64,000 nucleotides of DNA. Source: Eledone cirrhosa (taxonomy: Eukaryota). Location of the stretch: NCBI GenBank assembly GCA_964016885.1, contig OZ024745.1:11842001-11906000 (forward strand), written 5' to 3'. Below, piece after piece: positions 30,001 to 62,296 of this stretch (position 1 is the first letter of the stretch; every line of letters starts with the position of its first letter). Both the position numbers and the translations under genes were made by a program. The notes under the pieces were generated by a model. The model worked only from the letters and a program-made list of their open reading frames with translations, did no database searches and was not told the origin of the DNA.

Positions 30001-30374
30001 TGCAGGACAAAACTGCATTCTTTATATTTGTCTCAGAGACAGCTGATCCATCATCCACTGGCCCTCTCTGTGGCTCTAAGCCAGCAGAGTCATAACGACC
30101 AGGCTGCTCCTTGACAGTGTAATTAGGGGCTCTAACCCTAGTGCTGTTAGATCGACTCTCCATATTTCTTTTCAATGGCTGACAATACCTTACCGGCGCC
30201 ACTCGAATAAGGTAGTTATTTAACCCATAAATGGAGCCCTAACAGGTACTACCACCCCGGGCCAGGGCAGACCTGGGAGTCATGACAACTAAGGGGTAAC
30301 TCCACATTCCCCACAACTCCTGAACTCCCGAACTGGAGCCTTGCCACTGGATGTAGTTTAATGTCATACCCAGG
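27057..30374 (-). mobile_element. RTE-clade non-LTR retrotransposon, apparently near full length and recent
   Basis: Perfect 12-bp TSD actctacctatc (27045-27056, 30375-30386); single long ORF; short (TAGA)n 3' tail; about 210-nt 5' UTR. Confidence 0.93.
27068..30163 (-). CDS. RTE ORF: AP endonuclease plus reverse transcriptase (1031 aa from first ATG; reading frame open to 30202)
   Basis: APE motifs GTLNVRT, QEHR, SAYSPT, GDFNAH, SQIDFIL, SDH; RT motifs YRGISL, QNGFR, FIDFRKAFDSV, GVLQGDTLAPYLF, FADD; RTE-type C-terminus RLRLAGH..RRGRPR..DRDRW; no internal stops. Confidence 0.95.
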   Translation of the reverse strand: MESRSNSTRVRAPNYTVKEQPGRYDSAGLEPQRGPVDDGSAVSETNIKNAVLSCRRAIKMGTLNVRTIRTLEKREELGHLFEESGIQILAIQEHRILHDEPVRSVMIGRKSQLITTSAVKNTTNAAVGGVGFVFSAKTNLLVREIMPISPRVLRVTFNGNPRLTVISAYSPTEGDSDVNAEEFHEEVCGAVNTTQAHNILLVLGDFNAHLSKEGSEDPCWYFHNNTNRNGRLLRDTLLEANLMATNLRFRKNLGKMWTYISDMHLSKSQIDFILVRKKWRNSVLNTEPYSYFSTLGSDHRLVMSEVRVSLRKSKAQPRRTIYDWGAFKEDDKLQERFTVEVRFRFSALCGESEEREIGWTEESVTRRYGHFTNAVAKASETLVPRKKNKGKHVSSANTKVCAAREHLKAARDQFYADPTEERMETVEVMREELCTAYTEVREEALIEKIRSVERAVDRSGCKESWMIIIEITGRKKRCSSQIQGTGPEDRKRKWLDHFRTLLGEPPSTAQSSGEIRRLFEELDVETELFTREELQRAKKKIKEGKAHGEEGVASEVMKRCDFDDIILGFCNGALEKGVAPNQWRISNIVPVLKKGDLSNTNNYRGISLTSLVAKTLNRMILNRIQPEMEKKLRDNQNGFREGRSTTSHILMLRRILEGARAKCLPAVMVFIDFRKAFDSVDRYCLMKILQAYGIPKRIVDLISLLYTNTKAQVITPDGMTEFFEILAGVLQGDTLAPYLFIIVVDYCMRLALEKYQDTGFTVAPAQSRRVGAKKVSDAEFADDIVLVTNTVKEAEDLMREVETVSMSVGLRMNETKTKYLVENVEKPEGITNVGGKPLELVEDFLYLGAKIGNTEDDVVGRKSKAWAACHSLRSVWKSDLRRNLKIRLFIAVVESVLLYGSETWTLTKRLTQMVDGCYTRMLRMALNINQYTLRMKNSELYGSIPKVSSKVTQRRLRLAGHAHRHPELTLHSVLLWEPLHGHTRRGRPRLTYVDALRTDTGLLEMQDMAAIMRDRDRWRELVHGSREFYPP

Positions 30375-32342: not shown

Positions 32343-32460
32343 ATACCTCCCTGCCAGATGATTGAACGTCTGAAAGTATATATTTTCCTTATGCATATTA
32401 ACGGCTGAGTAGCCTAATTTGCATATCGAGTGGGTTAATCGGCCGGGTGCACCGAAAACG

Positions 32461-32610
32461 ATAAACGGAAAAAATGAAAGGAAATTTCATTTCCCACTCT
32501 TAGTACGGCTGTTACTTAAATATAAGTATGTATACGTATAAGTATGTATATTTAAGTAACAGCCGTACTAAGAGTGGGAAATGAAATTTCGTTTCATTTT
32601 TTCCGTTTAT
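32461..32610. repeat. Inverted repeat, 64-bp arms with 1 mismatch, centred on TATACGTATA
   Basis: 32461-32524 is the reverse complement of 32547-32610. Confidence 0.92.
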
Positions 32611-34333: not shown

Positions 34334-34429
<96 letters not shown>

Positions 34430-34486
34430 ATAATACTAATAATAATAATTATATATATATATATATTTATATATACATATATATAT

Positions 34487-34515
<29 letters not shown>

Positions 34516-34517
<2 letters not shown>

Positions 34518-34655
34518 ACGAAGGAAATGTGGTAAGGAACCAGGTGGACCATAACGCATCAAAGTACTCAATACTTAGGGTAGTAGAGTGGGTAATAGGA
34601 ACGAGTAGGACCCCGACGGCTGAGCTCAAGCCGTCGAGGTCCTACTCGTTCCTAT
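34516..34655. mobile_element. Short tail-plus-hairpin element, homologous to 49812-50612
   Basis: About 80-bp segment ataacgaagg..gtagagtgggt shared with 49812-49891, then taggaacgagtaggaccccgacggct-GAGCTC-aagccgtcgaggtcctactcgttccta; flanked by (TA)n. Confidence 0.75.
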
Positions 34656-34672
34656 ATATATATATATATATA

Positions 34673-34709
<37 letters not shown>

Positions 34710-34710
<1 letters not shown>

Positions 34711-35963
34711 CTTGAGTCTCAGTCATTGATGTTAGTTAACTGGAAAGTCCGTTGGAATGAATATCAAGCCACTACCTGCAGCCTCAGATATTCAGGACGT
34801 ATCGGAGGGTTCTTGCTGTTCCCAGCAAGCATGCCTTTTGAAGCGTTCCAAAAAGCGTGAAGGGGCCGATTTTCTTTAACCATCCCTGGAAACTTTTGGA
34901 GATAGTCCCCAGTGCGCCTATGACAATCGGGATCACTTTGACTTCATGGCAGTTCCAAATCCTTTTTACCTCTCACTTTAAGTCCTGGTATCGGTTAATT
35001 TTCTCCCTCTCCTTCTCTTGCACTCTCGTGTCGAATGGGCAGGCCACATCCACAATCAGACACGATCTTTATTCTTTGTCCACAACCACCAGGTCAGGTC
35101 TATTGTGTTCCAGTTTCTTGTCCGTCTGTATCCTAAAATCCCACAGCACCTTCACCTGATCGTTCTCTATCACCGCCTCTGGCTTATGCTCATACCATCT
35201 CTCAGAATGTGGTAAATTGTTTACTTTGCACAGGTGCCAGTGGATCACCCTGCCCATCACATCATGTCTCCAGCCCTTATAGTGGGTCTGGGCTAGGTGT
35301 TTACACTCGGATACAATGTAAGCCACAGTCTCCTCTCTCTCTCCACAGATCCTGCACAGTGGGCTAGCCTCCTCCTTGTAAATATGGTGTTTCAACCACT
35401 TCGTTTTGAGGGCCTGCTCCTGCGCAGCCATTAACATTCCTTCTGTAGCCTTTTTAAGGTCTCCTCTTCTCAACCAGTTCCATATCTGTGGATCTCTAAA
35501 TTCAGTTTTCTCAAAGAAGGTACTATGAAGGGATTTTTCCTGAAGGCTGCTCTTTCTCTTTGATGTTATTTCCTCCTTGGACATCCCCTGGCCTATTGTC
35601 CCCTCCTTCAGTACAGTTCTGAGCATTGGCTCCGTACTATCAGTCACGTATTTGTGTAGGTTGTTGTTCTCCATCTGAACACAGTCCTCTATGCTGATAA
35701 GACCTCTTCCACCTTCAAATCTCCTTAAGTAGAGTCTATCGACATCACTCCTCTTGTGGAACATGTTGTAGATAGTCAATAGCTTCCTAGTCTTCCTATC
35801 CATTTCTTTTTGTTCAGCAACATTCCATCTCAGGATTCCCGCACTGTACCTAATAATAGACACAGCTCGGGAATTTACTGCGCTTATGGCATTTCTGCTG
35901 TTCAGATGTGACTTCAATACGCTCCTTACTCTCCGAATGTATTCAGTTCTTAACAATTCATTC

Positions 35964-35965
<2 letters not shown>
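34710..35965 (-). pseudogene. 5'-truncated R4/Dong-like non-LTR retrotransposon (RT thumb, zinc knuckle, RLE endonuclease) with two premature stops
   Basis: GGRGL, AAQEQAL, CRICG..ETVAYIVSEC, RHD, WDF..HNRPDLVV; the frame continues past TAA 35069 and TGA 34973 as LIVDVACPFD..EKINRYQDL..PIVIGALG..LQKACLLGTARTLR to the stop at 34784; (TAA)n on both flanks. Confidence 0.9.
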
Positions 35966-36006
<41 letters not shown>

Positions 36007-36582
36007 TTATATATATATATATATATACATGGGTGTGTGTGTGTGTGTGCGTGTATGTATATAATAGATTTATTCTTAAAATGCTGGATTATCCATCGAT
36101 CTCCGACAGAGATAAAGAGATAGGTATCACGTTTTTGTTTTCATTTATCGATCATTTTACATATATGTTGTTTTGTTTTTTCTATCAGTCAAAAAGTTTC
36201 TCTAATGGTTGCAACCTAGGCTACTATATTGGTGTGTGAGTGTCGTTTTATCATTTCTATGATCACTATAATTCTCAGCATCTCCATAAACCTCTCTATC
36301 AATATAATTGCTACTACAAACAACAAAACTGAAAACAATAACAGTTCAGTTGGCCATCGTTAAAATAGTCTTTATATAACTATTATGAAACAACAGTAAC
36401 AGCGCCATCTACAACAGTAACAGCGCCATCTACACTACCAAACTTACAGACGTACAAGAACTAACCACAGCAACAAACTGAAATCCATTATATAACCTCA
36501 AACTCTTTCTCAAACTGTAGAAGATCAACAGAAACAAAAGCAATCTTCACATCTATATATAACCAGATCTGTAGCAGATCAT

Positions 36583-36596
36583 GTTTCCATAGCAAC
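36583..36596. promoter_or_regulatory. RFX X-box-like motif GTTTCCATAGCAAC
   Basis: Fits GTYNCYATRGNAAC; motif match only. Confidence 0.3.
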
Positions 36597-36729
36597 TGAT
36601 AGAAGTGACTTCCAGTTGAAGGAGTTATTATATCATTATGACCATTGTCTTGTCGCTATTATCCAACTATTTCCATAAATAGAAACTTAGTTTCCCGTGA
36701 GAGAAAGTTCTTTTTTTTTTTCGTCTGTC

Positions 36730-36890
36730 CCCTCTCTCTCTCACACACACACACTCTCTCTGTCACAAACACTCTCTCTTTCTCCCTCCATCTCTCCCTC
36801 TTTTTTCTCTCTCTCTCTCAATCTCTCTCACATACACACACTCCCTCTTTCTCTCTCTCACACACACATTATATCTCTGTGTGTCTATCC

Positions 36891-36961
<71 letters not shown>

Positions 36962-37014
36962 CATACATAAATATATTATATTTCGTTATTTTTCTGTCTG
37001 TTTCTTTCTCTCTC

Positions 37015-37072
<58 letters not shown>

Positions 37073-37380
37073 GTGAAAACTGGAACGGGAACAAAAACAG
37101 TGATGCAGTACAAACAAAGGTTTATTAGTTTCACGCTCTTGAGAGTGGGGGGTGGTGTGGTGGTGTGGTGGTGTGGTGGGGTGGGGATATGTATATATAT
37201 ACGTACACACACACATATATATATATATAAATATATATATATATACATACATACACTCTCGTTCAGTCCCCCCCCCCCCCTTCTTTTCATCTGACTATTT
37301 CAGTAATAACACAATTAACAATAGTTACGATTCTTTTTTCCTTTTGTTGTCAGAATTATCCATTTTGCAACAAAAAAATG

Positions 37381-37421
<41 letters not shown>

Positions 37422-37470
37422 AACCACTACTACTACTACTACTACTACTAATACTGCCACTACTACTACC
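36730..37470. repeat. Cluster of (TC)n, (TA)n, (GTG)n and (CTA)n microsatellites
   Basis: Direct reading. Confidence 0.85.
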
Positions 37471-37480
37471 ACTAATGATA

Positions 37481-37597
37481 ATAATTGTTTCTACTTTTGG
37501 CACAAGGCCAGCAATTACTCAGTGTATTACTGGTACTTTATTTTATCGACCCCGTAAGGATGAAAGGCAAAGTTAACCTCGGCGGGATTTGAACTCT
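37481..37597 (-). mobile_element. Nin/Deu-type SINE, 5'-truncated at the B box
   Basis: ataattgtttctac..ctggtactttattttatcgaccccgtaaggatgaaaggc..gatttgaactc. Confidence 0.88.
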
Positions 37598-37602
37598 AAC
37601 AT

Positions 37603-37818
37603 TACTACTACTACTTCTACTACTACTCCTACTACTACTACAACTACTACTACTACCACTACTACTACTACTACTGCTACTACTACTTCTTCTACTACTA
37701 CTCCTACTACTACTACAACTACTACTACTACCACTACTACTACTCCTACTACTACTACTACCACTACTACTACAACTACCACTACTGCCATCACTACTAT
37801 TACTACTATTACTACTAT

Positions 37819-37893
<75 letters not shown>
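37603..37893. repeat. (CTA)n degenerate microsatellite
   Basis: Direct reading. Confidence 0.95.
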
Positions 37894-38020
37894 ATAACAA
37901 CAACTCAGATCTGGAAACATAGCCCTTCGTAACAACTGAAATAAATCCTCTACAAAAATGAAGAATTAACCCCAATAAGTACAACTGATACATATTAAAT
38001 GGGATTATTATAGGGAAAAG

Positions 38021-38605
38021 GGCGGTGGATTGGCAATATCGGTAGAGGGTCGGACGCCATGCTAGGGAGGTGGATTGGCAATATCGGTAGAGGGTCGGAC
38101 GCCATGCTAGGGAGGTGGATTGGCAGTATCGGTAGAGGGTCGGACGCCATGTTAGGGCGGTGGATTGGCAGTATCGGTAGAGGGTCGGACGTCATGTTAG
38201 GGAGGAGGATTGGCAGTATCGGTAGAGGGTCAGACGCCATGCTAGGGAGGTGGATTGGCAGTATCGGTAGAGGGTCAGACGCCATGCTAGGGAGGTGGAT
38301 TGGCAGTATCGGTAGAGGGTCGGACGCCATGTTAGGGAGGTGGATTGGCAGTATCGTTAGAGGGTCGGACGCCATGTTAGGGCGGTGGATTGGCAGTATC
38401 GGTAGAGGGTCAGACGCCATGCTAGGGAGGTGGATTGGCAGTATCGGTAGAGGGTCGGACGCCATGCTAGGGAGGTGGATTGGCAATATCGGTAGAGGGT
38501 CGGACGCCATGTTAGGGCGGTGGATTGGCAGTATCGGTAGAGGGTCGGACGCCATGTTAGGGCGGTGGATTGGCAGTATCGGTAGAGGGTCGGACGCCAT
38601 GCTTT
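38021..38605 (+). repeat. 45-bp minisatellite, 13 copies, made from the SINE 5' head
   Basis: Unit gg[c/a]ggtggattggcagtatcggtagagggtcggacgccatg[c/t]tag; the 13th copy (38561) runs into the SINE body. Confidence 0.95.
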
Positions 38606-38752
38606 GACGCATAAAGTTACGGCCCTTTATGGTCTGAGTTCAAATCTCGCCGAGGTAAACTTTGCCTTTCATCCTTACGGGGTCGATAAAATAAAGTACC
38701 AGTAATACACTGGGATAATTGCTGGCCTTGTGCCAAAAGTAGAAACAATTAT
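38561..38752 (+). mobile_element. Nin/Deu-type tRNA SINE, complete
   Basis: A-box-like tggcagtatcgg, B box gagttcaaatc, gcctttcatccttacggggtcgataaaataaagtaccag, tail tagaaacaattat; TSD-like attattatagg.aaaa at 38004-38019 and 38748-38763. Confidence 0.9.
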
Positions 38753-38768
38753 TATAGGAAAAATATAA

Positions 38769-38925
38769 GGCGGTGGATTGGTAAAATCAGTAGAGCGTAG
38801 CATAGAGTTGTGGCCCTTTACGTTCAGTGTTCAAATGCCACAAAGGTTAGATTTACCTTTCATCTTTACGGAGTCGATAAAATAAAGTACCAGTAATACC
38901 CTGGGGTTGATATAATCAACTTTCA
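38769..38925 (+). mobile_element. Second, more diverged Nin/Deu-type SINE in tandem
   Basis: ggcggtggattgg..gttcaaatg..tttcatctttacggagtcgataaaataaagtaccag. Confidence 0.8.
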
Positions 38926-39251
38926 CCTCCCAAATATATTGTTTAAATATGAAAATAGGCAACAAACAGACGACGCCACGGATGGCTTAGTGAGATGAAC
39001 TGAAAATCAACTGGATTTGTAAACAAAAAAATGAACTCTATCTAGGAATTAAGCAATTAGAAGCAGCAGCAGCAGCAGTAGCAGCAACAACAGCAACAAC
39101 AACAGCAACAACAGCAACAACAACATGGACGGTCGACTCATCTTCTATAATGAACTTCGTGGACTGGATTTATTGCAACAATAACACGAAAGCTATGTCA
39201 CATATTAATTCAAAAACTGTGTTCTGCTAAATGATTTACTCAGAACAAAAG

Positions 39252-39468
39252 TAAAATTGATATAAAGAGTGGTGTGCTCATGCACGGAGATGCTATAAAA
39301 TAGCTTATAAAACAGGGTGAAGACCCTGAAAGACGTAAAAAGAAGTTGACATCGGTTGCTCGAGCAATATGGGCTTCTAAACAACTTCTTTTTCGGTCTT
39401 TAAGGCTATTTTAAAGCTATTTTATAGCATCTCCGCGCATGAGCATACCACTCTTTATATTAACTTTA
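39252..39468. repeat. Imperfect fold-back element (MITE-like)
   Basis: Outer arms atataaagagtggtgtgctcatgcacggagatgctataaaatagctt / its complement; inner arms aaagac..aaaaagaagttg / caacttcttttt..gtcttt; central ttgctcgagcaa. Confidence 0.75.
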
Positions 39469-39550
39469 TCCCGTCAGCACTTCGTAGAAATCCAAAAATA
39501 AAATGGTTTAATTCAAAATAAATATAAAATATAGAGTTGAACGAATATAA

Positions 39551-40606
39551 ACAATGTTACCATCATAGTCACCAAATTGTGGTTAGAAGTTGGTGTATTA
39601 TAATACAATGTTACTATCATAGTCACCAAATTGTGGTTAGAAGTTGGTGTATTATAATACAATGTTACTATCATAGTCACCAAATTGTGGTGAGAAGTTG
39701 GTGTATTATAATACAATGTTACTATCATAGTCACCAAATTGTGGTGAGAAGTTGGTGTATTATAATACAATGTTACTATCATAGTCACCAAATTGTGGTT
39801 AGAAGTTGGTGTATTATAATACAATGTTACTATCATAGTCACCAAATTGTGGTGAGAAGTTGGTGTATTATAATACAATGTTACTATCATAGTCAGCAAA
39901 TTGTGGTGAGAAGTTGGTGTATTATAATACAATGTTACTATCATAGTCACCAAATTGTGGTGAGAAGTTGGTGTATTATAATACAATGTTACTATCATAG
40001 TCACCAAATTGTGGTGAGAAGTTGGTGTATTATAATACAATGTTACTATCATAGTCACCAAATTGTGGTGAGAAGTTGGTGTATTATAATACAATGTTAC
40101 TACCATAGTCACCAAATTGTGGTTAGAAGTTGGTGTATTATAATACAATGTTACTATCATAGTCAGCAAATTGTGGTGAGAAGTTGGTGTTTTATAATAC
40201 AATGTTACTACCATAGTCACCAAATTGTGGTGAGAAGTTGGTGTTTTATAATACAATGTTACTATCATAGTCACCAAATTGTGGTGAGAAGTTGGTGTAT
40301 TATAATACAATGTTACTATCATAGTCAGCAAATTGTGGTGAGAAGTTGGTGTATTATAATACAATGTTACTATCATAGTCACCAAATTATGGTTAGAAGT
40401 TGGTGTATTATAATACAATGTTACTATCATAGTCAGCAAATTGTGGTGAGAAGTTGGTGTATTATAATACAATGTTACTATCATAGTCACCAAATTGTGG
40501 TTAGAAGTTGGTGTATTATAATACAATGTTACTATCATAGTCACCAAATTGTGGTTAGAAGTTGGTGTATTATAATACAATGTTACTATCATAGTCACCA
40601 AATTGT
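39551..40606. repeat. 54-bp minisatellite, about 19.5 highly homogeneous copies
   Basis: Unit acaatgttactatcatagtcaccaaattgtggt[g/t]agaagttggtgtattataat. Confidence 0.97.
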
Positions 40607-40610
40607 CGTA

Positions 40611-40797
40611 ATAATTGTTTCTACTTTTGGCACAAGGCCAGCAAATACCGAGTACATTACTGGTACTTAATTTTATCGACCCCGTAAGGATGAAAGGCAA
40701 AGTTATCCGCGGCGGGATTTGAACTCAGAGCGCAAAGGGACGTAACTACCTGCTGTAAATCATGGCGTCCGACCCTCTACCGATTCTGCCAATCCAC
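40611..40797 (-). mobile_element. Nin/Deu-type SINE, complete
   Basis: Reverse complement of the family consensus from tail to head (..ccgaccctctaccgattctgccaatccac). Confidence 0.9.
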
Positions 40798-40814
40798 AGA
40801 ATGTTAATAATAAC

Positions 40815-40914
40815 AATGGTAGTGGTTCTGATGGTGTTAGTAGTAGTAGTGGTGGTAGCTGTGGTGGTGGTGGTTGTAGTAGTAGTAGTGGAGATGGTGG
40901 TTGTTGTTGTTGTT

Positions 40915-40966
<52 letters not shown>

Positions 40967-41027
40967 CAGCAGCAGCAGCAGTAGTAGAAGCAGTAGTAGT
41001 GGCAGTAGCAGCAGCCGTAGTAGAAAC

Positions 41028-41059
<32 letters not shown>

Positions 41060-41099
41060 CAGCAGTAGTAGTAGTAGTAGCAGCAGAAGCAGTAGTAGT

Positions 41100-41146
<47 letters not shown>

Positions 41147-41202
41147 CAGTAGTACAAGTAGTAGTAGTAGTAGTAGTAGTAGCAGGAGCAGGAGCACTAC
41201 TA
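40815..41202. repeat. (GTA/GCA/GTG)n trinucleotide tract
   Basis: Direct reading. Confidence 0.92.
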
Positions 41203-44200
41203 CTAGTGGTGGTGTGGTGTTTTGGTGTAGTGGTGTTGTGGTGTTGTAGTGTAGCGGTGGCGTGGTGTTGTAGTGGTGTGGTGTTGTGGTGTAGTGGTGG
41301 TGTGGTGTTTTGGTGTAGTGGTGGTGTGGTGGTGTGGTGTAGTGGTGGTGTGGTGGTGTGGTGTAGTGGTGGTGTGGTTTAGTGGTGGTGTGGTGTTGTG
41401 GTGTAGTGGTGGTGTGGTGTTGTGGTGTAGTGGTAGTGTGGTGTAGTGGTATTGTGGTGTTGTGGTGTTGTGGTGTTGTGGTGTAGTGGTGGTTTGGTGT
41501 AGTGGTGGCGTGGTGTCGTGGTGTAGTGGTGGTGTGGTGTAGTGGTGTAGTGGTGGTGTGGTTTTGTGGTGGTGTGGCGGTGTTGTGTAGTGGTGGTGTG
41601 GTGTAGTGGTGGTGTGGTGGTGTGGTGTTGTGGTGTAGTGGTGGTGTGGTGTAGTGGTGGTGTGGTGTAGTGGTGGTGTGGTGTTGTGGTGTTGTGGTGC
41701 TGTAGTGTAGTGGTGGTGTGGTGTAGTGGTGTTGTGGTGTACTGGTGGTGTAGTGTAGTGGTGGTGTGGTGTAGTGGTGATGTGGTGTTGTGGTGGTGTG
41801 GTGTTGTGGTGTAGTGGTGTTGTGGTGTTGTGCTGGTGTGGTGTTGTGGTGTAGTGGTGTTGTGGTGTTGTGCTGGTGTGGTGTTGTGGTGTAGTGGTGG
41901 TGTGGTGTAGTGGTGGTGTGGTGTAGTGGTGGTGTGGTCTAGTGGTGTTGTGGTGTAGTGGCGATGTGGTGTTGTGGTGTTGTGGTGTTGTGGTGTAGTG
42001 GTGGTGTGGTGTAGTGGTGGTGTGGTGTTGTGGTGTTGTGGTGGTGTAGTGTTGTGGTGGTGTGGTGTAGTGGTGTTGTGGTGTTGTGGTGTAGTGGTGG
42101 TGTGGTGTAGTGGTGGTGTGGTGTTGTGGTGTTGTGGTGGTGTAGTGTTGTGGTGGTGTGGTGTTGTGGTGTAGTGGTGTTGTGGTGTTGTGGTGTAGTG
42201 GTGGTGTGGTGTAGTGGAGGTGTGGTGTTGTGGTGTAGTGGTGTAGTGGTGGTGTGGTGGTGTTGTGGTGTAGTGGTGGTGTGATGGTGTAGTGGTGTTG
42301 TGGTGTAGTGGTGATGTGGTGTTGTGGTGTAGTGGTGGTGTGGTGTTGTGGTGTAGTGGTGTTGTGGTGTAGTGGTGGTGTGATGGTGTAGTGGTGTAGT
42401 GGTGGTGTGGTGTAGTGGTGTTGTGGTGTTGTGGTGTTGTAGTGTAGTGGTGTTGTGGTGTTGTGGTTTAGTGGTGGTGTGGTGTTGTGGTGTAGTGGTG
42501 GTGTGGTGTAGTGGTGTTGTGGTGTTGTGGTGTTGTAGTGTAGTGGTGTTGTGGTGTTGTGGTGTAGTGGTGTTGTGGTGTTGTAGTGTTGTGCTGTTGT
42601 GGTGTAGTGGTGTTGTGGTGGTGTGGTGTAGTGGTGTTGTGGTGTAGTGGTGTTGTGGTGGTGTGGTGTTGTGGTGTAGTGGTGATGTGGTGTTGTGGTG
42701 TAGTGGTGTTGTGGTGTTGTGGTGTAGTGGTGGTGTGGTGTAGTGGTGTAGTGGTGGTGTGGTGGTGTAGTGGTGTTGTGGTGCTGTGGTGGTGTAGTGT
42801 TGTGGTGGTGTGGTGTTGTGGTGTAGTGGTGTTGTGGTGGTGCGGTGTGGTGGTGGTGTTGTGGTGTAGTGGTGGTGTGGTGTTGTGGTGGTGTGGTGGT
42901 GTGGTGTAGTGGTGTTCTGGTGGAGTGGTGTAGTGGTGTTGTGGTGTTGTGGTGGTGTGGTGATGTGGTGTAGTGGTGTAGTGGTGGTGTGGTGTTGTGG
43001 TGTTGTGGTGGTGTGGTGTTGTGGTGTAGTGGTGTAGTGGTGGTGTGGTGTTGTGGTGTTGTTGTGTCGTGGTGTAGTGGTGGTGTGGTGGTGTGGCGTT
43101 GTGGTGTAGTGGTGTTGTGGTGTTGAGGTGTAATGGTGGTGTGGTGTTGTGGTGGTGGTGTGGTGTTGTGGTGGCGTGGTGTTGTGGTGTAGTGGTGGTG
43201 TGGTGTTGTGGTGTAGTGGTGGTGTGGTGTTGTAGTGTTGTGGTGTTGTGGTGTTGTGGTGGTGTGGTGGTGTGGTGGTGTGGTGTTGTGGTGTTGTGGT
43301 GTAGTGGTGTAGTGGTGGTGTGGTGTAGTGGTGGTGTGGTGTTGTGGTGTAGTGGTGGTGTGGTGTAGTGGTGGTGTGGTGTTGTGGTGGTGTAGTGCTG
43401 TGGTGATGTGGTGTTGTGGTGGTGTGGTGTTGTGGTGTAGTGGTGTTGTGGTGTAGTGGTGTTGTGGTGTAGTGATGTGGTGTTGTGGTGTAGTGGTGTT
43501 ATGGTGTAGTGGTGTGGTGATGTGGTGTTGTGGTGGTGTGGTGTTGTGGTGGTGTGGTGTTGTGGTGGTGTAGTGGTGTGGTGATGTGGTGTTGTGGTGG
43601 TGTGGTGTTGTGGTGTAGTGGTGTTGTGGTGTAGTGGTGTTGTGGTGTAGTGGTGGTGCGGTGTTGTGGTGTTGTGGTGTAGTGGTGTAGTGGTGGTGTG
43701 GTGTAGTGGTGTTGTGGTGGTGTAGTGGTGTGGTGATGTGGTGTTGTGGTGGTGTGGTGTTGTGGTGTAGTGGTGTTGTGGTGTAGTGGTGTTGTGGTGT
43801 AGTGGTGTTGTGGTGGTGTGGTGTAGTGGTGTTGTGGTGTAGTGGTGTTGTGGTGGTGTGGTGTTGTGGTGTAGTGGTGATGTGGTGTTGTGGTGTAGTG
43901 GTGTTGTGGTGTTGTGGTGTAGTGGTGGTGTGGTGTAGTGGTGTAGTGGTGGTGTGGTGGTGTAGTGGTGTTGTGGTGCTGTGGTGGTGTAGTGTTGTGG
44001 TGGTGTGGTGTTGTGGTGTAGTGGTGTTGTGGTGGTGCGGTGTGGTGGTGGTGTTGTGGTGTAGTGGTGGTGTGGTGTTGTGGTGGTGTGGTGGTGTGGT
44101 GTAGTGGTGTTCTGGTGGAGTGGTGTAGTGGTGTTGTGGTGTTGTGGTGGTGTGGTGATGTGGTGTAGTGGTGTAGTGGTGGTGTGGTGTTGTGGTGTTG

Positions 44201-45113
44201 TGGTGGTGTGGTGTTGTGGTGTAGTGGTGTAGTGGTGGTGTGGTGTTGTGGTGTTGTTGTGTCGTGGTGTAGTGGTGGTGTGGTGGTGTGGCGTTGTGGT
44301 GTAGTGGTGTTGTGGTGTTGAGGTGTAATGGTGGTGTGGTGTTGTGGTGGTGGTGTGGTGTTGTGGTGGCGTGGTGTTGTGGTGTAGTGGTGGTGTGGTG
44401 TTGTGGTGTAGTGGTGGTGTGGTGTTGTAGTGTTGTGGTGTTGTGGTGTTGTGGTGGTGTGGTGGTGTGGTGGTGTGGTGTTGTGGTGTTGTGGTGTAGT
44501 GGTGTAGTGGTGGTGTGGTGTAGTGGTGGTGTGGTGTTGTGGTGTAGTGGTGGTGTGGTGTAGTGGTGGTGTGGTGTTGTGGTGGTGTAGTGCTGTGGTG
44601 ATGTGGTGTTGTGGTGGTGTGGTGTTGTGGTGTAGTGGTGTTGTGGTGTAGTGGTGTTGTGGTGTAGTGATGTGGTGTTGTGGTGTAGTGGTGTTATGGT
44701 GTAGTGGTGTGGTGATGTGGTGTTGTGGTGGTGTGGTGTTGTGGTGGTGTGGTGTTGTGGTGGTGTAGTGGTGTGGTGATGTGGTGTTGTGGTGGTGTGG
44801 TGTTGTGGTGTAGTGGTGTTGTGGTGTAGTGGTGTTGTGGTGTAGTGGTGGTGCGGTGTTGTGGTGTTGTGGTGTAGTGGTGTAGTGGTGGTGTGGTGTA
44901 GTGGTGTTGTGGTGGTGTAGTGGTGTGGTGATGTGGTGTTGTGGTGGTGTGGTGTTGTGGTGTAGTGGTGTTGTGGTGTAGTGGTGTTGTGGTGTAGTGG
45001 TGTGGTGTTGTGGTGTAGTGGTGTTGTGGTGTAGTGGTTTGGTGATGTGGTGTTGTGGTGGTGTGGTGTTGTGGTGGTGTGGTGTAGTGGTGTAGTGGTG
45101 GTGTGGTGTTGTG
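41203..45113. repeat. Complex GT-rich simple repeat (GTGGTGTA / GTGGTGTT / GTGGT units) with an internal 1195-bp tandem duplication
   Basis: Identical ORF translations at 43093 and 44288 (offset 1195); marker ttctggtggag near 42915 and 44110. Confidence 0.93.
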
Positions 45114-45519
45114 TTAACATATAAGACAATAAAATAATAAAGAGAAAATCCGACCTTTCTCCTATAATGTATTTAATACGATGGAGAAATGGAAAACTTT
45201 AGGCCTGGAATGTAATAAAATGGCCTTCTCTTTATTCTTCTATTTATTGCTAAATAATAGACTTATAAATGATTTTTCATTTTTACTGCCTTTGAAAAAA
45301 ATCGAAGAAATTTATGGTTTTGTTGTATTTGTTATTTTTAATAATTAGGCTTTTGTTTGTTTGTGTATGTTTGTTTGCGTGTTTTTTTAGCGGGTAATTT
45401 TAACTGAATGAAGAGTGTTACCAAATGAATAGTTAGCAATATATTATTGGTACTCGTTGATATTGTGGTTGCTAAGGTAGATTATCCTTGTTCAGCGATT
45501 GTTGCGTGGACCTATAGCC

Positions 45520-45710
45520 AAAGGCATCCCAGGCGTGAATCGAACTCACAATCCTACGATTGTGAATCCAAATCTCTAACCACTAAACTCAGCGCCTTCA
45601 CAACATAGATGCACGATATCAGAAGAGAACATCGCCCGGTCCAGGAATCGAACTCGCAACCTTACGATTGTGAAACTAATTCTCTAACAACTAAGCCCGG
45701 TGCCTTCACA
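45520..45710 (-). mobile_element. Two tandem tRNA-like SINE heads (CORE-type family)
   Basis: Both read aatcgaactc..tacgattgtgaa..ctctaac.actaa..gccttcaca, matching the head of the 49.2-49.8 kb SINE. Confidence 0.7.
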
Positions 45711-46296
45711 TATATAACCATTAAATAAGTGTTCTTGTTCTAAACTTGTTAGCAAGATTTCTTAACTCTTTTCTGGAACATTTAGAAAGTTCTGCCGTTA
45801 GCATATCTACGTTTATCAATATTTACCAACTAAAATAAATAAATAGATAAAATAGTTTTTGTATTTTCTAAATTTTGGTTTTCAGCAAATTCTTTGGATA
45901 TCAAGTCGTGAATTAATTCTATTTAACATTTCAATATATTTATTACAAGAACTACGAGTTTTACGAAACTTAATTGTACTAGAAATAAATTCATAGACAT
46001 AGATACTTAGCAATGCAATTGTGCTTGGATATTGGTGACTATAAATATACTAAATATACTAAATATACTAATGAAATACTAATCACACATGTGGGTGAAG
46101 TCTTTTCAGTTGTTTATTTATTGGTTAATATTAGGTGAAATAGTTTTCTAACCATGTAAGTAAATGTTACACGTATATACCAAACGTATCCTTACGTGTT
46201 TTTTGTTAATAACATTTATTTTTAAACTCTTAATCAGGGGTAATCTTGGATAGAAGACCATCATTATGAAATCGAACGACAGTTATCAGGTTTTCC

Positions 46297-46308
46297 GCCG
46301 CCATCTTG
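46297..46308 (-). promoter_or_regulatory. YY1-type motif CAAGATGGCGGC
   Basis: Exact consensus in non-repetitive sequence; motif match only. Confidence 0.35.
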
Positions 46309-46452
46309 ACTTAGATAATCTCCAGACTGAACTCTGTTTTGTACAACTTTAATCATAGTTCAAAACTCTCTCAGACTGGCTTTTTTTTTCATTACTTGCT
46401 AATCAATAGAACAATTCCCTTTATCTAATTAATACACTGGAAACAATTTAAC

Positions 46453-46690
46453 TCATTATGTAGAAATAATATTTGCTAAGAACACCGGAAGTCTCTGCTG
46501 CCACAAGTTCAACCATAAATCTATCTGAGAGCGGCCGATACTTTGACAATCTTTCTTCCTTCGATCTCGTGAGCTGTGAAGGCTGGGCTGGGACATGAAT
46601 GCACCAGGTTGAGGCCAGGGAGGTGTCACGACATGTAGCAACCTAGATGAAGGGCCTACCCCTAAGGAAGACTGTATACATCACCACTGA
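46453..46690 (-). pseudogene. Decayed RLE endonuclease fragment of a CRE-like non-LTR retrotransposon
   Basis: Frameshifted translation GRPFI*VATCRDT..AHEIEGRK..KYRPLSDRFMVELVAAETSGVL resembles WDATCxDT..AE.RK..KY..L..F.P.A.ETSG. Confidence 0.55.
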
Positions 46691-46911
46691 ATAAAATAAT
46701 AGCTGAACAGGAAGCGAGGATTACTAGAATTGAACCTGATTTCTTCAGTGAACATCAGGTTTAGCTATTTATTACCTTACGATGTTATTACAATTGGATG
46801 TCAGTTCTTGGTGAAATGATTCTTTGGACCGACTTTGACTTTTTTGCTTTTGATGCTTGGAGAAAGGAATATATGTCGTTCAACATCTATATATGAAATC
46901 AATATATACAC

Positions 46912-46993
<82 letters not shown>

Positions 46994-47057
46994 TATATCT
47001 ATATATCTATATATCAATGATATTAATAAATGGAAACTATATTTATAAAACCATATT

Positions 47058-47118
47058 TATTCTATTATATATATTTCAAGGGTACCAAAACATTGGTACG
47101 CTCTCATCAGATAAAATA
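47058..47118 (-). ncRNA. Minimal type I hammerhead ribozyme, canonical core
   Basis: UAUUUUAU-CUGAUGA-GAGCGUACCAA(UGUU)UUGGUACCCUU-GAAA-UAUAUA-UA|AUAGAAUA: 8-bp stem I, 11-position stem II with one mismatch and a G-U closing pair, palindromic helix III; lies in a ~190-bp insert between (TA)n tracts. Confidence 0.82.
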
Positions 47119-47181
47119 CAAACTTTGTTTTATAAATAGTGACATACCCTGGAATGAAACCTTAACGGTTCAAGTTCTGTC

Positions 47182-47225
<44 letters not shown>

Positions 47226-47230
<5 letters not shown>

Positions 47231-47816
47231 AGTGTAATTTTCTACACAAAACGAAGGTTATAGAGAAAATTGAGGTTGGTAATGGCACATAGAATATATA
47301 AGAGACAGAATACTTTTTTGTGAAAAAACATAATTTTATAAGGTAAGGAAATAATAAAGGGTATAAAAAATGACCGGTTTCGATGGGTCTGCAAAAGCCA
47401 TCTTTTCAAATGTTGATTAATATTAAGAAAAATTAATAATACGAAGAGTTAAAATTTGAGACTTGAAAATTCAAGTATAAAATTCATTGTGGGATTTCAT
47501 AGCAGTTTTCATCTAGGTGAAATTCACTACCAGAAAGGGACACAGCAGTCAACCTGTTGTTGCTACCTAAATGAAAACTGCTATGAAATCCCACAATGAA
47601 TTTTATACTTGAATTTTCAAGTCTCAAATTTTAACTCTTCGTATTATTAATTTTTCTTAATATTAATCAACATTTGAAAAGATGGCTTTTGCAGACCCAT
47701 CGAAACCGGTCATTTTTTATACCCTTTATTATTTCCTTACCTTATAAAATTATGTTTTTTCACAAAAAAGTATTCTGTCTCTTATATATTCCATGTGCCA
47801 TTACCAACCTCAATTT

Positions 47817-47821
<5 letters not shown>
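47226..47821. mobile_element. Penelope-like inverted pseudo-LTR pair: 36-bp tail, 257-bp arm, 46-bp spacer, 257-bp inverted arm
   Basis: 47262-47518 is the reverse complement of 47565-47821 (2 mismatches seen); each arm carries a hammerhead motif pointing outward; flanked by (TA)n and (TC)n(TA)n. Confidence 0.8.
47669..47716 (+). ncRNA. Hammerhead motif with U3-A8 core (mirror copy on minus strand at 47367-47414)
   Basis: AACAU-UUGAAAA-GAUGG(11 nt)CCAUC-GAAAC-CG-GUC|AUUUU; palindromic ACCGGU helix III. Confidence 0.68.
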
Positions 47822-47855
<34 letters not shown>

Positions 47856-49176
47856 AAGAAAATGCACAATGAGAATGAAGCATGTGGACATTATAATTGT
47901 GAATGATTTGTATTAGAAAAGTTTGCAGATAGAGGAAGAGGGCGGGGTGGTTAGTGAAGGGGTGGGGGTTGACAAGGAAATATTGAGAGAAATGTGCAGA
48001 TATAAATGTTATTTAAGGCAGAAGGTGGAATGTAAAGAAGGACAAGACAAAGAGAAAGTGGTGATGGTGAAAATGATAGGAAGAAAATGAGATTAGTGAA
48101 GCGAAGAATGAAAACAATCCCAGAGAAGGAAATGCAAGTATTACAAATCAGAAATACGTAAGATAAAGTTAATTGTTTTTATTAAAAAAAAAGAAAGAAA
48201 GAAGAGAATATAAACTAAAAAAGAGAGAGGGTAGAGGAAGATGGAAGCAAAGGAAATATAGAAAATCAAGATAAATAGAAAAATATAATACAGACAGAAA
48301 GGAGAAGAAAGAAAAGAGGAATGAAAAAAAGCAGTAAAGCTTTAGGAATTTTAAAAGTGAAATACTAAATTTAAATTAAAAATAAAATCAAAATCTATAG
48401 ATAGTTTAAAATTGGATGAGAAGTCTAAAAACGATCATAGAGAGCATAAAACATAAAAGACATTTCAGACGAGAATTTGTTATAAAAACAAAATAAGAAA
48501 TATATATATAGACAATGAAATAAAATCTTATGACAATCGAGATAGAAATACAAAGAGAGAAGATTCGTGTATGAAATGCTGGGGCGATAGATGGGAAGAA
48601 TAGACGCATTGGAGAACTACAATTATAAGAAAGAAAAATAACATCCGGAAGACGAACGGAAAACATGAAGTACGAAATAAAGTGTGGAATAAGAAAAAAG
48701 ATGAAATCCCTAAATTGAAAATAAATAAAACGAAAAATTGCAACTCGTTATAGTATAGCTTGTAAAGAAAGTAATGAGTTGAAGAAAAGCGTTAATGGTG
48801 AACAAGGTAAATAGCAGCCATTTTAGTTTGATTTCAACTTAATGGGGAACAGAGGGGTGAAGGTGTCGTTTCATATTTAGAAACAACTCTGAATGACTTA
48901 ACACTTCTATTGTGAAAGGTTCCCAAAAATAACACGCATGCTCACACACACACACACACATTCACACATAGATACATGTGTGTGTGCGTGTGTTGAACAA
49001 TGAAAACAGAGGACGAAGTTTATTGCTTAATCAGTTTGTTTTACGATCGTTTCAGAAGGTTGATTGATCATGATAAATCGATATAGTGGCTAATCAATAG
49101 TAGTTATGTAACCCGATATTATTAGTCTCGATACTATAGACCCATATGATCGTCTTCGTCAGAAATATATATATAT

Positions 49177-49432
49177 CACCTTGACCGACCAGTCTATCGG
49201 GCGCAAATCGGCGCCGCTGGTCACAGCACGTCGTGCTTTTTTAACCATAAGATAACGCCACCCCACTAGCTGGGTGGGCAGGCTGGTACTCATTTCTAGT
49301 AAACTGAGTAAACTGGAGCAACGTGAAATAAAGTGTCTTGCTCAAGGAAACAACACATCACCCGGTCCGAGAATTGAACTCACAACCTTTCGAATGCAAG
49401 CCCAATGCTCTAACCACTAAGCCATGCGCCTT

Positions 49433-49433
<1 letters not shown>
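49177..49433 (-). mobile_element. CORE-type tRNA SINE, left arm of palindrome
   Basis: Reverse complement of 49520-49776 with about 6 substitutions. Confidence 0.88.
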
Positions 49434-49519
<86 letters not shown>

Positions 49520-49522
<3 letters not shown>

Positions 49523-49776
49523 GGCGTATGGCTTAGTGGTTAGAGCATTGGGCTTGCATTCGAAAGGTTGTGAGTTCAATTCTCGGACCGGGTGATGTGT
49601 TGTTTCCTTGAGCAAGACACTTTATTTCACGTTGCTCCAGTTTACTCAGTTTACTAGAAATGAGTACCAGCCTGCCCACCCAGCCAGTGGGGTGGCGTTA
49701 TCTTATGGTTAAAACAGCACGACGTGCTGTGACCAGCGGCGGCGATTGGCGCCCGACAGACTGGTCGGTCAAGGTG
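49520..49776 (+). mobile_element. CORE-type tRNA SINE, right arm of palindrome
   Basis: A box tggcttagtgg, B box gagttcaattc, CORE-like ccttgagcaagacactttatttcacgttgctccagtttactcag..aaatgagtacc, (TA)n tail. Confidence 0.88.
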
Positions 49777-49811
<35 letters not shown>

Positions 49812-49814
<3 letters not shown>

Positions 49815-50606
49815 AACGAAGGAATTGTGGTAAGGAACCAGATGGACCATAACACACCAAAGTATTCAATACTTAGGGTAGTAGAGTGGGTTATAGGAAC
49901 AAGTATGACCCCGATGGCAGAGCTCAACCCGTTTCGACGGCTATTTCTGGACTAAATAAGAATTCTCAGGGGGTATTTCCTTATATGGGAAGATAGTAAT
50001 TGTCAAATGGATTGGTCAACAATTTGTTGTAAAGACAGATGAATCTATCATGGCATTTGGTGGGAGGTAGGGGTGGCTGAACTTGCCGGTAGAACCAAGA
50101 GGGAGTGGGGGAAGGATAGTGTATAAAAGGTCGAAAAAAGTGTACCGGAGAAGAGGAGGGGGGTGAAAGAATAGGTAAATCGAAAGGGAGTAAAAAAAAA
50201 ACCATTATAAAAATAAGGATATAATATATATATATATTATATTTATATATATTATATCCTTATTTTTATAATGGTTTTTTTTTACTCCCTTTCGATTTAC
50301 CTATTCTTTCACCCCCCTCCTCTTCTCCGGTACACTTTTTTCGACCTTTTATACACTATCCTTCCCCCACTCCCTCTTGGTTCTACCGGCAAGTTCAGCC
50401 ACCCCTACCTCCCACCAAATGCCATGATAGATTCATCTGTCTTTACAACAAATTGTTGACCAATCTTTTTGAAAATGACTATCTTTCCATATAAGGAAAT
50501 ACCCCCTGAGAAGTTCGGTTATTTATTTACCAGGCTAAAAATTGTTATTTAGTCCAGAAATAGCCGTCGAAACGGGTTGAGCTCTGCCGTCGGGGTCATA
50601 TTTGTT

Positions 50607-50612
<6 letters not shown>
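49812..50612. mobile_element. Penelope-like inverted pseudo-LTR pair: ~80-bp tail plus ~340/370-bp inverted arms; degenerate hammerhead at 50502-50581 (+)
   Basis: 49892-50232 mirrors 50244-50612 apart from a ~28-bp indel; right arm reads CUGAGAA-G..CGGUUAUUU..GGCUAAA..UUUAGUC..AAAUAGCCG.C-GAAAC-GG-GUU; (TA)n on both flanks. Confidence 0.78.
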
Positions 50613-59052: not shown

Positions 59053-59219
59053 TTTATTGAATATAAAAATAACGACTTAGATAAAATGATATCATTTGTT
59101 CACGATAGACGTCATGAACTGTTGGGTGGGGAGGAGTATATTTTTGAAACTAAAGAAATACAAGTTCAAAATATATAAAATTCTGTGTTGGGTCTGACTT
59201 CAGGCAAGATTCGCTACCA

Positions 59220-62200: not shown

Positions 62201-62296
62201 CATACTGTCAATGTTGGACAATAGAACTACCATACTATCATACTGTCAATGTTGGACAATAGAACTACTATACTATCATACTGTCAATGTTGGACA
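59220..62296. repeat. 38-bp minisatellite, about 81 copies
   Basis: Unit tagaactac[c/g/t]atactatcatactgtcaatgttggacaa. Confidence 0.97.

What the first reader, a model, noticed from the sequence alone, without database searches (positions are those of the whole stretch)
34516..50612. Same element, two fold-back lengths, identical outer boundary and one-sided tail
Seen: 34516-34655 and 49812-50612 share an ~80-bp unpaired segment, and both inverted arms stop at the same point (..GTTCCTA then (TA)n). One turns after ~28 bp at GAGCTC, the other after ~340 bp at an AT-rich centre. Established: Penelope insertions show inverted, variably 5'-truncated pLTRs with a tail on one side only. Inference: two defined priming points on one RNA with both cDNAs joined at a self-complementary site, so this is a programmed integration geometry and not random duplication.
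Basis: partly seen in the sequence, partly recalled or inferred. Interest (0 to 1): 0.72.

Follow-up and report, generated by a model that had tools for sequence, protein, structure and literature searches.

The report
Twin-primed Hydra-clade Penelope insertions
The two mirror-image repeats are real copies of a very abundant Penelope-like jumping gene whose lopsided shape is already published; across the genome they almost always join one tailed and one tail-less arm, which likely records two DNA copies started at two fixed points of the element's RNA from both cut strands of a TA repeat.

Summary
Observation confirmed. Both sites are head-to-head insertions of one Hydra-clade Penelope-like retroelement (PLE) in (TA)n; the genome holds 29,652 exact matches to a 27-nt tail motif. 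Outer ends are two fixed points 77-80 nt apart. Of 115 paired insertions, 101 join a tailed to a tail-less arm and 3 join like with like. Full-length copies (7 of 7) and a second PLE family (7 of 7) do the same. Fold-back fails as the general route: the tail-less arm is longer in 56 of 101, and in 9 the tailed arm stops at or before ref 81, where the other begins. Turn points are mostly not variable: 62 of 101 have both arms ending at ref 128-147, probably the RNA 5' end. Those joins show no microhomology excess; only off-mode turns such as copy A use self-complementary sites (hammerhead stems; GAGCTC is loop III). Inverted pLTRs, the one-sided tail and two RT start sites are published; the strict pairing counts were not found in the papers searched. 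This scan reached the same reading in at least 25 other genomes. One RNA molecule versus two is unresolved.

The parts
34334..34517 (.). (TA)n target repeat left of copy A
   Evidence: TRF
34518..34594 (-). Copy A tail (ref 1-77): element sequence between RT start site 2 (tail end) and site 1; sense strand is minus; in read-through copies it continues towards the ORF start
   Evidence: read-through copies L151 and L226-L255
34595..34634 (-). Copy A tailed arm beyond site 1 (ref 78-117), including hammerhead stem III with loop GAGCTC (34622-34627)
34629..34655 (+). Copy A tail-less inverted arm (ref 104 to 78); 34629-34634 is the 6-nt microhomology AGCCGT at the join
   Evidence: winA
49816..49892 (-). 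Copy B tail (ref 1-77), preceded by (TA)n 49777-49815
49893..50232 (-). Copy B tailed arm (ref 78-491), 3' UTR/pLTR of the element; private 29-nt deletion
50233..50241 (.). Copy B junction: AT-rich insert between the arms
   Evidence: winB
50242..50611 (+). Copy B tail-less arm (ref 493 to 78), followed by (TA)n to 50655
50501..50596 (+). Type I hammerhead-like motif: stem I ACCCC/GGGGT, core CTGAGAA (C3 with A8), GAAA 50569, stem III with GAGCTC loop, GTC site ending 50591
   Evidence: assigned by eye from 55 arms; no Rfam hammerhead hit
50549..50554 (+). TTAGTC, initiator-like (consensus recalled, untested); its A (50551 = ref 138) is the commonest inner arm end in the family

Best explanation
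Both sites are non-coding end-pieces of a Hydra-clade Penelope-like retrotransposon, each likely built at insertion by twin priming: the element's endonuclease would cut both strands of a (TA)n repeat, and the two freed ends would prime reverse transcription at two fixed points 80 nt apart on the element's RNA. Shown: two fixed ends, near-obligate tailed/tail-less pairing, (TA)n flanks, an ATA (UAU in the RNA) match between target and element at both start points, and arms of one subfamily. Inferred: the 3' ATA of each cut strand pairs with UAU; one primer takes the inner site and one the tail end, most simply on one RNA held by an RT dimer; both cDNAs usually run off an RNA 5' end near ref 138 and are joined head-to-head by end joining, blunt or with small inserts; when they stop early they anneal through the hammerhead stems (copy A); longer or multimeric transcripts give long arms (copy B) and full-length copies. 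Copy B's inner arms were probably homogenised later.
For: Pairing 101 vs 3 among 115 paired insertions, 11 unclassified (binomial 9e-27). 7 of 7 full-length copies with both ends visible, in both polarities. 7 of 7 true pairs in a second family. Genome-wide 852 tail-joined vs 977 TA-joined arms of one variant. Tail-less arm longer in 56 of 101; tailed arm stops at or before ref 81 in 9; early stops (under 120) hit the tailed arm 26 times vs 6, as expected if it runs behind the inner primer. Arms concordant at subfamily sites: 82 of 88, 87 of 92, 90 of 91, 74 of 75, 67 of 67, against 45, 68, 53, 50, 42 expected; 0 of 23 mixed pairs between two alleles that mark subfamilies of similar age. The best natural 5-nt fold-back just past 138 was seen 0 times, against 12 blunt 138/132 joins; that join occurs in both polarities and two subfamilies. 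TA repeat on at least one side in 123 of 127 rows, 12 rows duplicated between samples. In vitro precedent: two RT start sites bracket the tail, both strands are cut and extended, dimer predicted (PMC11167929).
Against: No RNA or biochemical data for this family. Subfamilies differ in age (1.5-5.5% divergence), so concordance partly reflects time, and two RNAs from one source locus give the same signal. In 16 long pairs only 26 of 59 minor-allele sites are shared (null 13%). Among 30 copies holding the ORF start, 18 run past ref 147 and only 1 stops at 136, so ref 138 is not the 5' end of the RNAs that make long copies. The base after 138 is G 25, C 19, T 5 of 49, not the C-only mark of cap copying. 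Both samples come from the first 42 Mb of one contig and need an exact anchor match. 15 of 85 and 12 of 69 insertions had no detectable partner. PAc start sites were reported as not homologous to the target, unlike the UAU match here.
Confidence: 0.68

Rival explanations
1. Two RNAs, one per protomer of an asymmetric RT dimer, one forced to start at the tail end and the other at the inner site.
For: Gives the same pairing; dimer predicted for PAc (PMC11167929). Overlapping arms need the same RNA stretch copied twice, which two RNAs do without strand displacement. Age structure can explain allele concordance.
Against: Needs an unexplained asymmetry. 0 of 23 mixed pairs between similar-aged subfamilies. 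Private deletions shared by both arms of copy B. Early stops favour the tailed arm (26 vs 6).
Confidence: 0.2
2. Fold-back or self-priming: one cDNA (or an antisense RNA, as proposed in PMC3846280) turns on a palindrome and copies itself back.
For: Explains arm identity and the 3-6 nt overlaps in 8 of 20 off-mode blunt joins, including copy A, and the near-identical inner arms of copy B (1 mismatch in about 216 sites vs 8 in about 115, p=0.001).
Against: Cannot give a second arm longer than the first (56 of 101), arms that barely or do not overlap (9 of 101), or a full-length copy with either polarity. No microhomology at modal joins; the best fold-back site is unused.
Confidence: 0.06
3. The ~200-bp hairpins are a non-autonomous MITE- or retrozyme-like unit copied whole from master copies.
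For: Tens of thousands of near-uniform short units; recurring joins (138/132 in 9 of 70).
Against: The same join carries the tail on either arm and occurs in different subfamilies; about half of joins have individual inserts. Short units lack most of the hammerhead and the sequence 3' of the tail.
Confidence: 0.04
4. For the fixed inner end only: ref 132-138 is an RT stall at a hairpin, or a processed or spliced RNA end (two AG dinucleotides lie there on the sense strand), not a transcription start.
For: A weak hairpin ends at this point; peaks at 132/134 and 137/138; Penelope has a 5' UTR intron near its start site (PMC2377424 passages); long copies do not start here.
Against: RT passes this point in 18 of the 19 ORF-start copies that reach it; no shared upstream-exon sequence follows 138.
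Confidence: 0.3

Closest known systems
Hydra clade of C-terminal EN+ PLEs (Craig et al. 2021, PMC8557442, section 11 read)
   Same: RW[RK], DKT, RT YxDD, CxCx5C linker, C-terminal GIY-YIG-like EN with CxxC..E..N..CxH, (TA)n target, hammerhead-like motif.
   Different: Unit about 3.4 kb (under 3 kb is typical there); tail 77-80 nt, not 30-40; hammerhead core mostly C3 with A8; at least 29,652 tails; no tree against named Hydra families could be built.
Inverted-pLTR PLE insertion unit with one-sided tail (Pen2a_Av, PMC3846280; Fig. 2 legend of PMC8557442; passages read)
   Same: Head-to-head 5'-truncated inverted copy, tail at one end only, partial tandems.
   Different: There the tail is called optional and junction palindromes are read as self-priming; here pairing is near-obligate, modal joins lack palindromes, and self-priming is excluded as the rule.
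PAc (Poseidon, Anolis) internal RT initiation (Frangieh et al. 2024, PMC11167929, main text read)
   Same: Two adjacent internal RT start sites that delimit the tail; AT-rich target cut and extended on both strands; hammerhead 5' of the sites.
   Different: That paper does not pair the two sites on one insertion or explain the inversion, and its start sites are reported as not target-homologous; here both share ATA/UAU with (TA)n.
L1 twin priming (recalled, not read)
   Same: The second target strand primes a second cDNA internally; the two are joined inverted.
   Different: In L1 the internal site is variable and the arms do not overlap; here both sites are fixed and the arms usually copy the same stretch.

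Membership tests
EN+ Penelope-like element | Single ORF with RT and GIY-YIG endonuclease linked to these ends | tested here: met
   Full-length copies run from ORF start to the same ends. The 404-aa RT part finds 315 homologues, best 47%, one with Pfam RVT_1 at 2e-7; the EN part has only a sub-threshold GIY-YIG hit, E 0.069, and 36% identity to that homologue's C-terminus. All copies examined are broken.
EN+ Penelope-like element | pLTR from partial tandem, tail lying 5' of the ORF start | tested here: met
   L151 and most of L226-L255 read through the tail into the ORF N-terminus.
EN+ Penelope-like element | Hammerhead ribozyme in the pLTR | tested here: inconclusive
   Type I layout by eye, variable position 7, A8 with U3 in 10 of 55 arms (the U3-A8 variant of PMC4209133) and C3 in most. 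No Rfam hit; fold z 0.21; activity untested.
Hydra clade | RWK-like motif and DKT in place of DKG | tested here: met
   RWR and DKT in L149/L151; motif order in 4 full-length copies.
Hydra clade | CxCx5C linker; CxxC and CxH around conserved E and N; no CCHH | tested here: met
Hydra clade | Insertion into (TA)n | tested here: met
   84 of 100 tail ends directly after TATATA; 123 of 127 rows.
Hydra clade | Phylogenetic placement with named Hydra RTs | not testable with these tools
   No named Repbase references were available; homologues are unnamed.
Neptune clade (first guess) | CX2-5CxxC linker and CCHH motif | tested here: not met
   Linker is CxCx5C and CCHH is absent; met instead, by eye, by the second family at 47227-47830.
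MITE / retrozyme | Unit copied whole with a conserved centre, or tandem ribozyme repeats | tested here: not met
   Junctions individual, both polarities, subfamily-independent.
EN+ Penelope-like element | Target site duplication | tested here: inconclusive
   Flanks are (TA)n, so a duplication cannot be read.

The most novel reading that the evidence does not exclude
PLE integration is an obligate one-RNA twin-priming reaction: a helix closing over the tail (CUCUACUAC with GUAGUAGAG just 3' of the tail end, predicted) presents two UAU anchors to the two cut (TA)n strands, so every insertion gets exactly one tailed and one tail-less cDNA, and the commonest product is a run-off hairpin that maps the transcript's 5' end. 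This would explain the tail, the inversion and the microsatellite bias in one step.
Probability: 0.45. Interest if true: 0.62.

Novelty: new member of a known kind. Interest (0 to 1): 0.38.

Why it matters
How PLEs make their tandem/inverted structures and one-sided tail is named as open in PMC8557442 and left to 'additional steps' in PMC11167929. The counts here give a sharp prediction for the existing in vitro system (one start site per target strand, always one of each) and argue against the published self-priming idea. In practice, tens of thousands of such hairpins can be mis-annotated as MITEs or miRNA-like loci (one search shows sub-threshold miRNA hits on copy B). The structure itself is known, and this scan has recorded it in many other genomes.

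Tried and rejected
Rfam scan: only sub-threshold miRNA-type hits from hairpins and microsatellites. Neptune assignment dropped after motif check. General palindrome enrichment at turns rejected. Cap-derived C after ref 138 not supported. Stops at the predicted ribozyme cut (ref 97): about 8 of 122 arm ends in sample 2 fall at 96-98, confounded by G/C-run microhomology; inconclusive. Covariation of the tail helix: by eye the 30 ORF-start copies show no compensatory change and are too alike to test. A genome-wide count of end pairs was not obtained; pairs were counted on fetched loci. No coding PLE remnant elsewhere in the window (tblastn). Pfam did not recognise the element's own RT fragments. 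Arkhipova 2006 is not held, so its text, and the supplements of the cited papers (not opened), may already hold pairing statements. Literature searches; in the listings and passages read, none showed a twin-priming model or pairing counts for PLEs. No structure or complex prediction was run.
Full report
Coordinates. 'ref' counts along the element from the tail end (ref 1 = window 34518 and 49816) in the window's + direction, which is the cDNA (antisense) direction. T = arm starting at the tail end, N = arm starting at ref 78.

1. Observation. The two sites align at 91% over 119 nt. Each is (TA)n, a 77-nt unpaired tail, an arm, an inverted arm ending at GTTCCTA, then (TA)n. Copy A is T 1-117 joined to N 78-104 through a 6-nt overlap, AGCCGT; GAGCTC is the loop the left arm simply reads through. 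Copy B is T 1-491, a 9-nt AT insert, and N 78-493. Its arms share a 44-nt deletion found in no other of 60 long arms, a 3-nt deletion and private substitutions, and 8 of their 9 mismatches lie in the outer third. That suggests one template plus later arm-to-arm repair (inference). The window lies in a 3.0-Gb genome. The family has 9,612 exact matches to an arm 32-mer and 29,652 to a tail 27-mer, with 0 for reversed controls.

2. Identity. Walking inward reached an ORF on the strand opposite to ref, and read-through copies show the tail lying just 5' of the ORF start, as in PLEs. The unit is about 3.4 kb. The RT part finds 315 longer homologues, best 47%; one has Pfam RVT_1, and the C-terminal part has a weak GIY-YIG hit. 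The motifs RWR, DKT, CxCx5C and CxxC-E-N-CxH, the absence of CCHH and the (TA)n target match the Hydra clade as defined in PMC8557442 section 11; my first guess, Neptune, failed. The arms hold a type I hammerhead-like motif assigned by eye, with A at position 8 and U3 in 10 of 55 arms. U3-A8 is a described PLE variant (PMC4209133, part 1 of 4 read); the commoner C3 with A8 may be inactive. Rfam did not find it.

3. Census. Sample 1: the first 100 matches gave 85 insertions. 70 have a head-to-head partner: 60 T+N, 1 T+T, 1 N+N, 8 unclassified; of 155 outer ends, 68 are at ref 1 and 59 at ref 78. Sample 2: the first 70 matches gave 69 insertions, 57 paired: 51 T+N, 2 T+T, 4 other. Merged without duplicates: 115 pairs, 101 T+N, 3 like-with-like, 11 other. 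Of 20 ORF-start copies extended plus L151, 7 showed both ends; all 7 are mixed, six with the short inverted arm T and one with it N. A second family from the window (47227-47830, about 35-nt tail, Neptune-type motifs by eye) gave 8 pairs among 30 loci; one is a read-through and was dropped, and the other 7 are all T+N, 37 to 2,345 bp apart. Both samples are anchored on exact motifs in the first 42 Mb of one contig, which biases arm lengths.

4. Turn points. 62 of 101 pairs have both arms ending at ref 128-147; the commonest arm ends are 138 (32), 137 (24), 132 (21) and 134 (20). In this class 28 of 62 joins have inserts and the 34 blunt ones have no microhomology excess (0.56 vs 0.81). Of the 39 other pairs 19 have inserts, and 8 of the 20 blunt ones overlap by 3-6 nt against 0.87 expected, at the hammerhead stems and G/C runs. 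A natural 5-nt fold-back just past 138 was used 0 times, against 12 blunt 138/132 joins, so the template probably ended there. Ref 138 is the A of TTAGTC, an initiator-like word (recalled consensus); Penelope's start site lies in its pLTR (PMC2377424 passages). Against: 18 of 30 ORF-start copies run past 147 and only 1 stops at 136, no cap-specific C follows 138, and the second family shows no fixed inner end in the pairs seen.

5. Mechanism. Fold-back cannot make N longer than T (56 of 101), T arms that stop by ref 81 (9 of 101) or both polarities of full-length copies, so two separately primed cDNAs are needed. At both start points the element continues with ATA in the cDNA direction, matching (TA)n; the second family likewise has TATA or TATAT at both points. 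I infer that each cut strand's 3' ATA pairs with UAU. Strict T+N pairing is simplest if one RNA, with one of each site, templates both. In favour: subfamily concordance (90 of 91, 74 of 75 and 67 of 67 at three sites; 82 of 88 and 87 of 92 at two more), no mixed pair among 23 between two similar-aged alleles, and more early stops on the trailing T arm (26 vs 6). Most deviations from the majority are not shared between arms (19 shared of 63 and 57), so conversion is not the general cause. But subfamilies differ in age, long pairs share only 26 of 59 minor alleles, and two RNAs of one source locus would look the same. A predicted 9-bp helix could hold both sites together; it has no covariation support.

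6. What is known. Inverted 5'-truncated copies with a 30-40 bp tail often at one end only: PMC8557442 (passages and section 11) and PMC3846280 (passages; proposes self-priming). Two internal RT start sites equal to the tail ends, both strands cut and extended, predicted dimer: PMC11167929 (main text and part of methods). Passages of PMC8969392, PMC13282606 and preprint 10.64898/2026.07.22.740005 added nothing on the mechanism. Searches showed no pairing counts or twin-priming model for PLEs; Arkhipova 2006 and all supplements were unseen. The scan's own index had no sequence match but 128 findings with these words in at least 25 genomes, the 8 shown being mostly the same twin-priming reading (looked up after my analysis; unreviewed, not independent evidence).

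7. Verdict. Real and programmed; a new Hydra-clade family showing a known PLE insertion geometry. Added here: near-obligate pairing in two clades, an unusually long tail, UAU anchors at both sites, a third fixed end, and the result that self-complementary joining is the exception. Interest 0.38.

Noticed in passing
window 47227-47830: Second PLE family (Neptune-type CX4CxxC linker and CCHH-like EN by eye in L270; minimal hammerhead with U3-A8 core) with 257-nt inverted arms, a 35-nt one-sided tail and (TA)n flanks; 2,627 exact 23-mer matches; same tailed/tail-less pairing but variable arm length.
   Followed up: partly
window 49165-49788: Two tRNA-related SINE-like copies in inverted orientation (312-nt arms, 95%) around a (CA)n(TA)n(TG)n centre, directly left of copy B.
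   Followed up: no
window 32460-32610: Short palindrome with an AT-rich centre next to (TA)n; family not identified.
   Followed up: no
window 27068-30238 (-): Uninterrupted 1,056-aa reading frame with endonuclease and RT motifs of a LINE (RTE-like by recall); possibly a young copy.
   Followed up: no
window 35069-35965 (-): 298-aa fragment of another non-LTR retrotransposon C-terminus just right of copy A.
   Followed up: no
window 2-26533, 38019-38603, 39546-40606, 41206-45113, 59219-62296: Large satellite and minisatellite arrays (42, 45, 54, 16-40 and 38 bp units).
   Followed up: no
L019-L022 (G000:C2, 338.33-338.46 Mb): The same insertion with its flanks repeated four times at about 44-kb spacing: a segmental tandem duplication or an assembly repeat.
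   Followed up: no
L085, L088, L121, L134, L140: Two hairpin units of this family close together in one (TA)n tract, suggesting repeated targeting of the same microsatellite.
   Followed up: no
ref 3-10 of family 1 and the site-1 end of family 2's tail: Both families carry CCTTCGTT on the sense strand next to one start site; may be chance.
   Followed up: no
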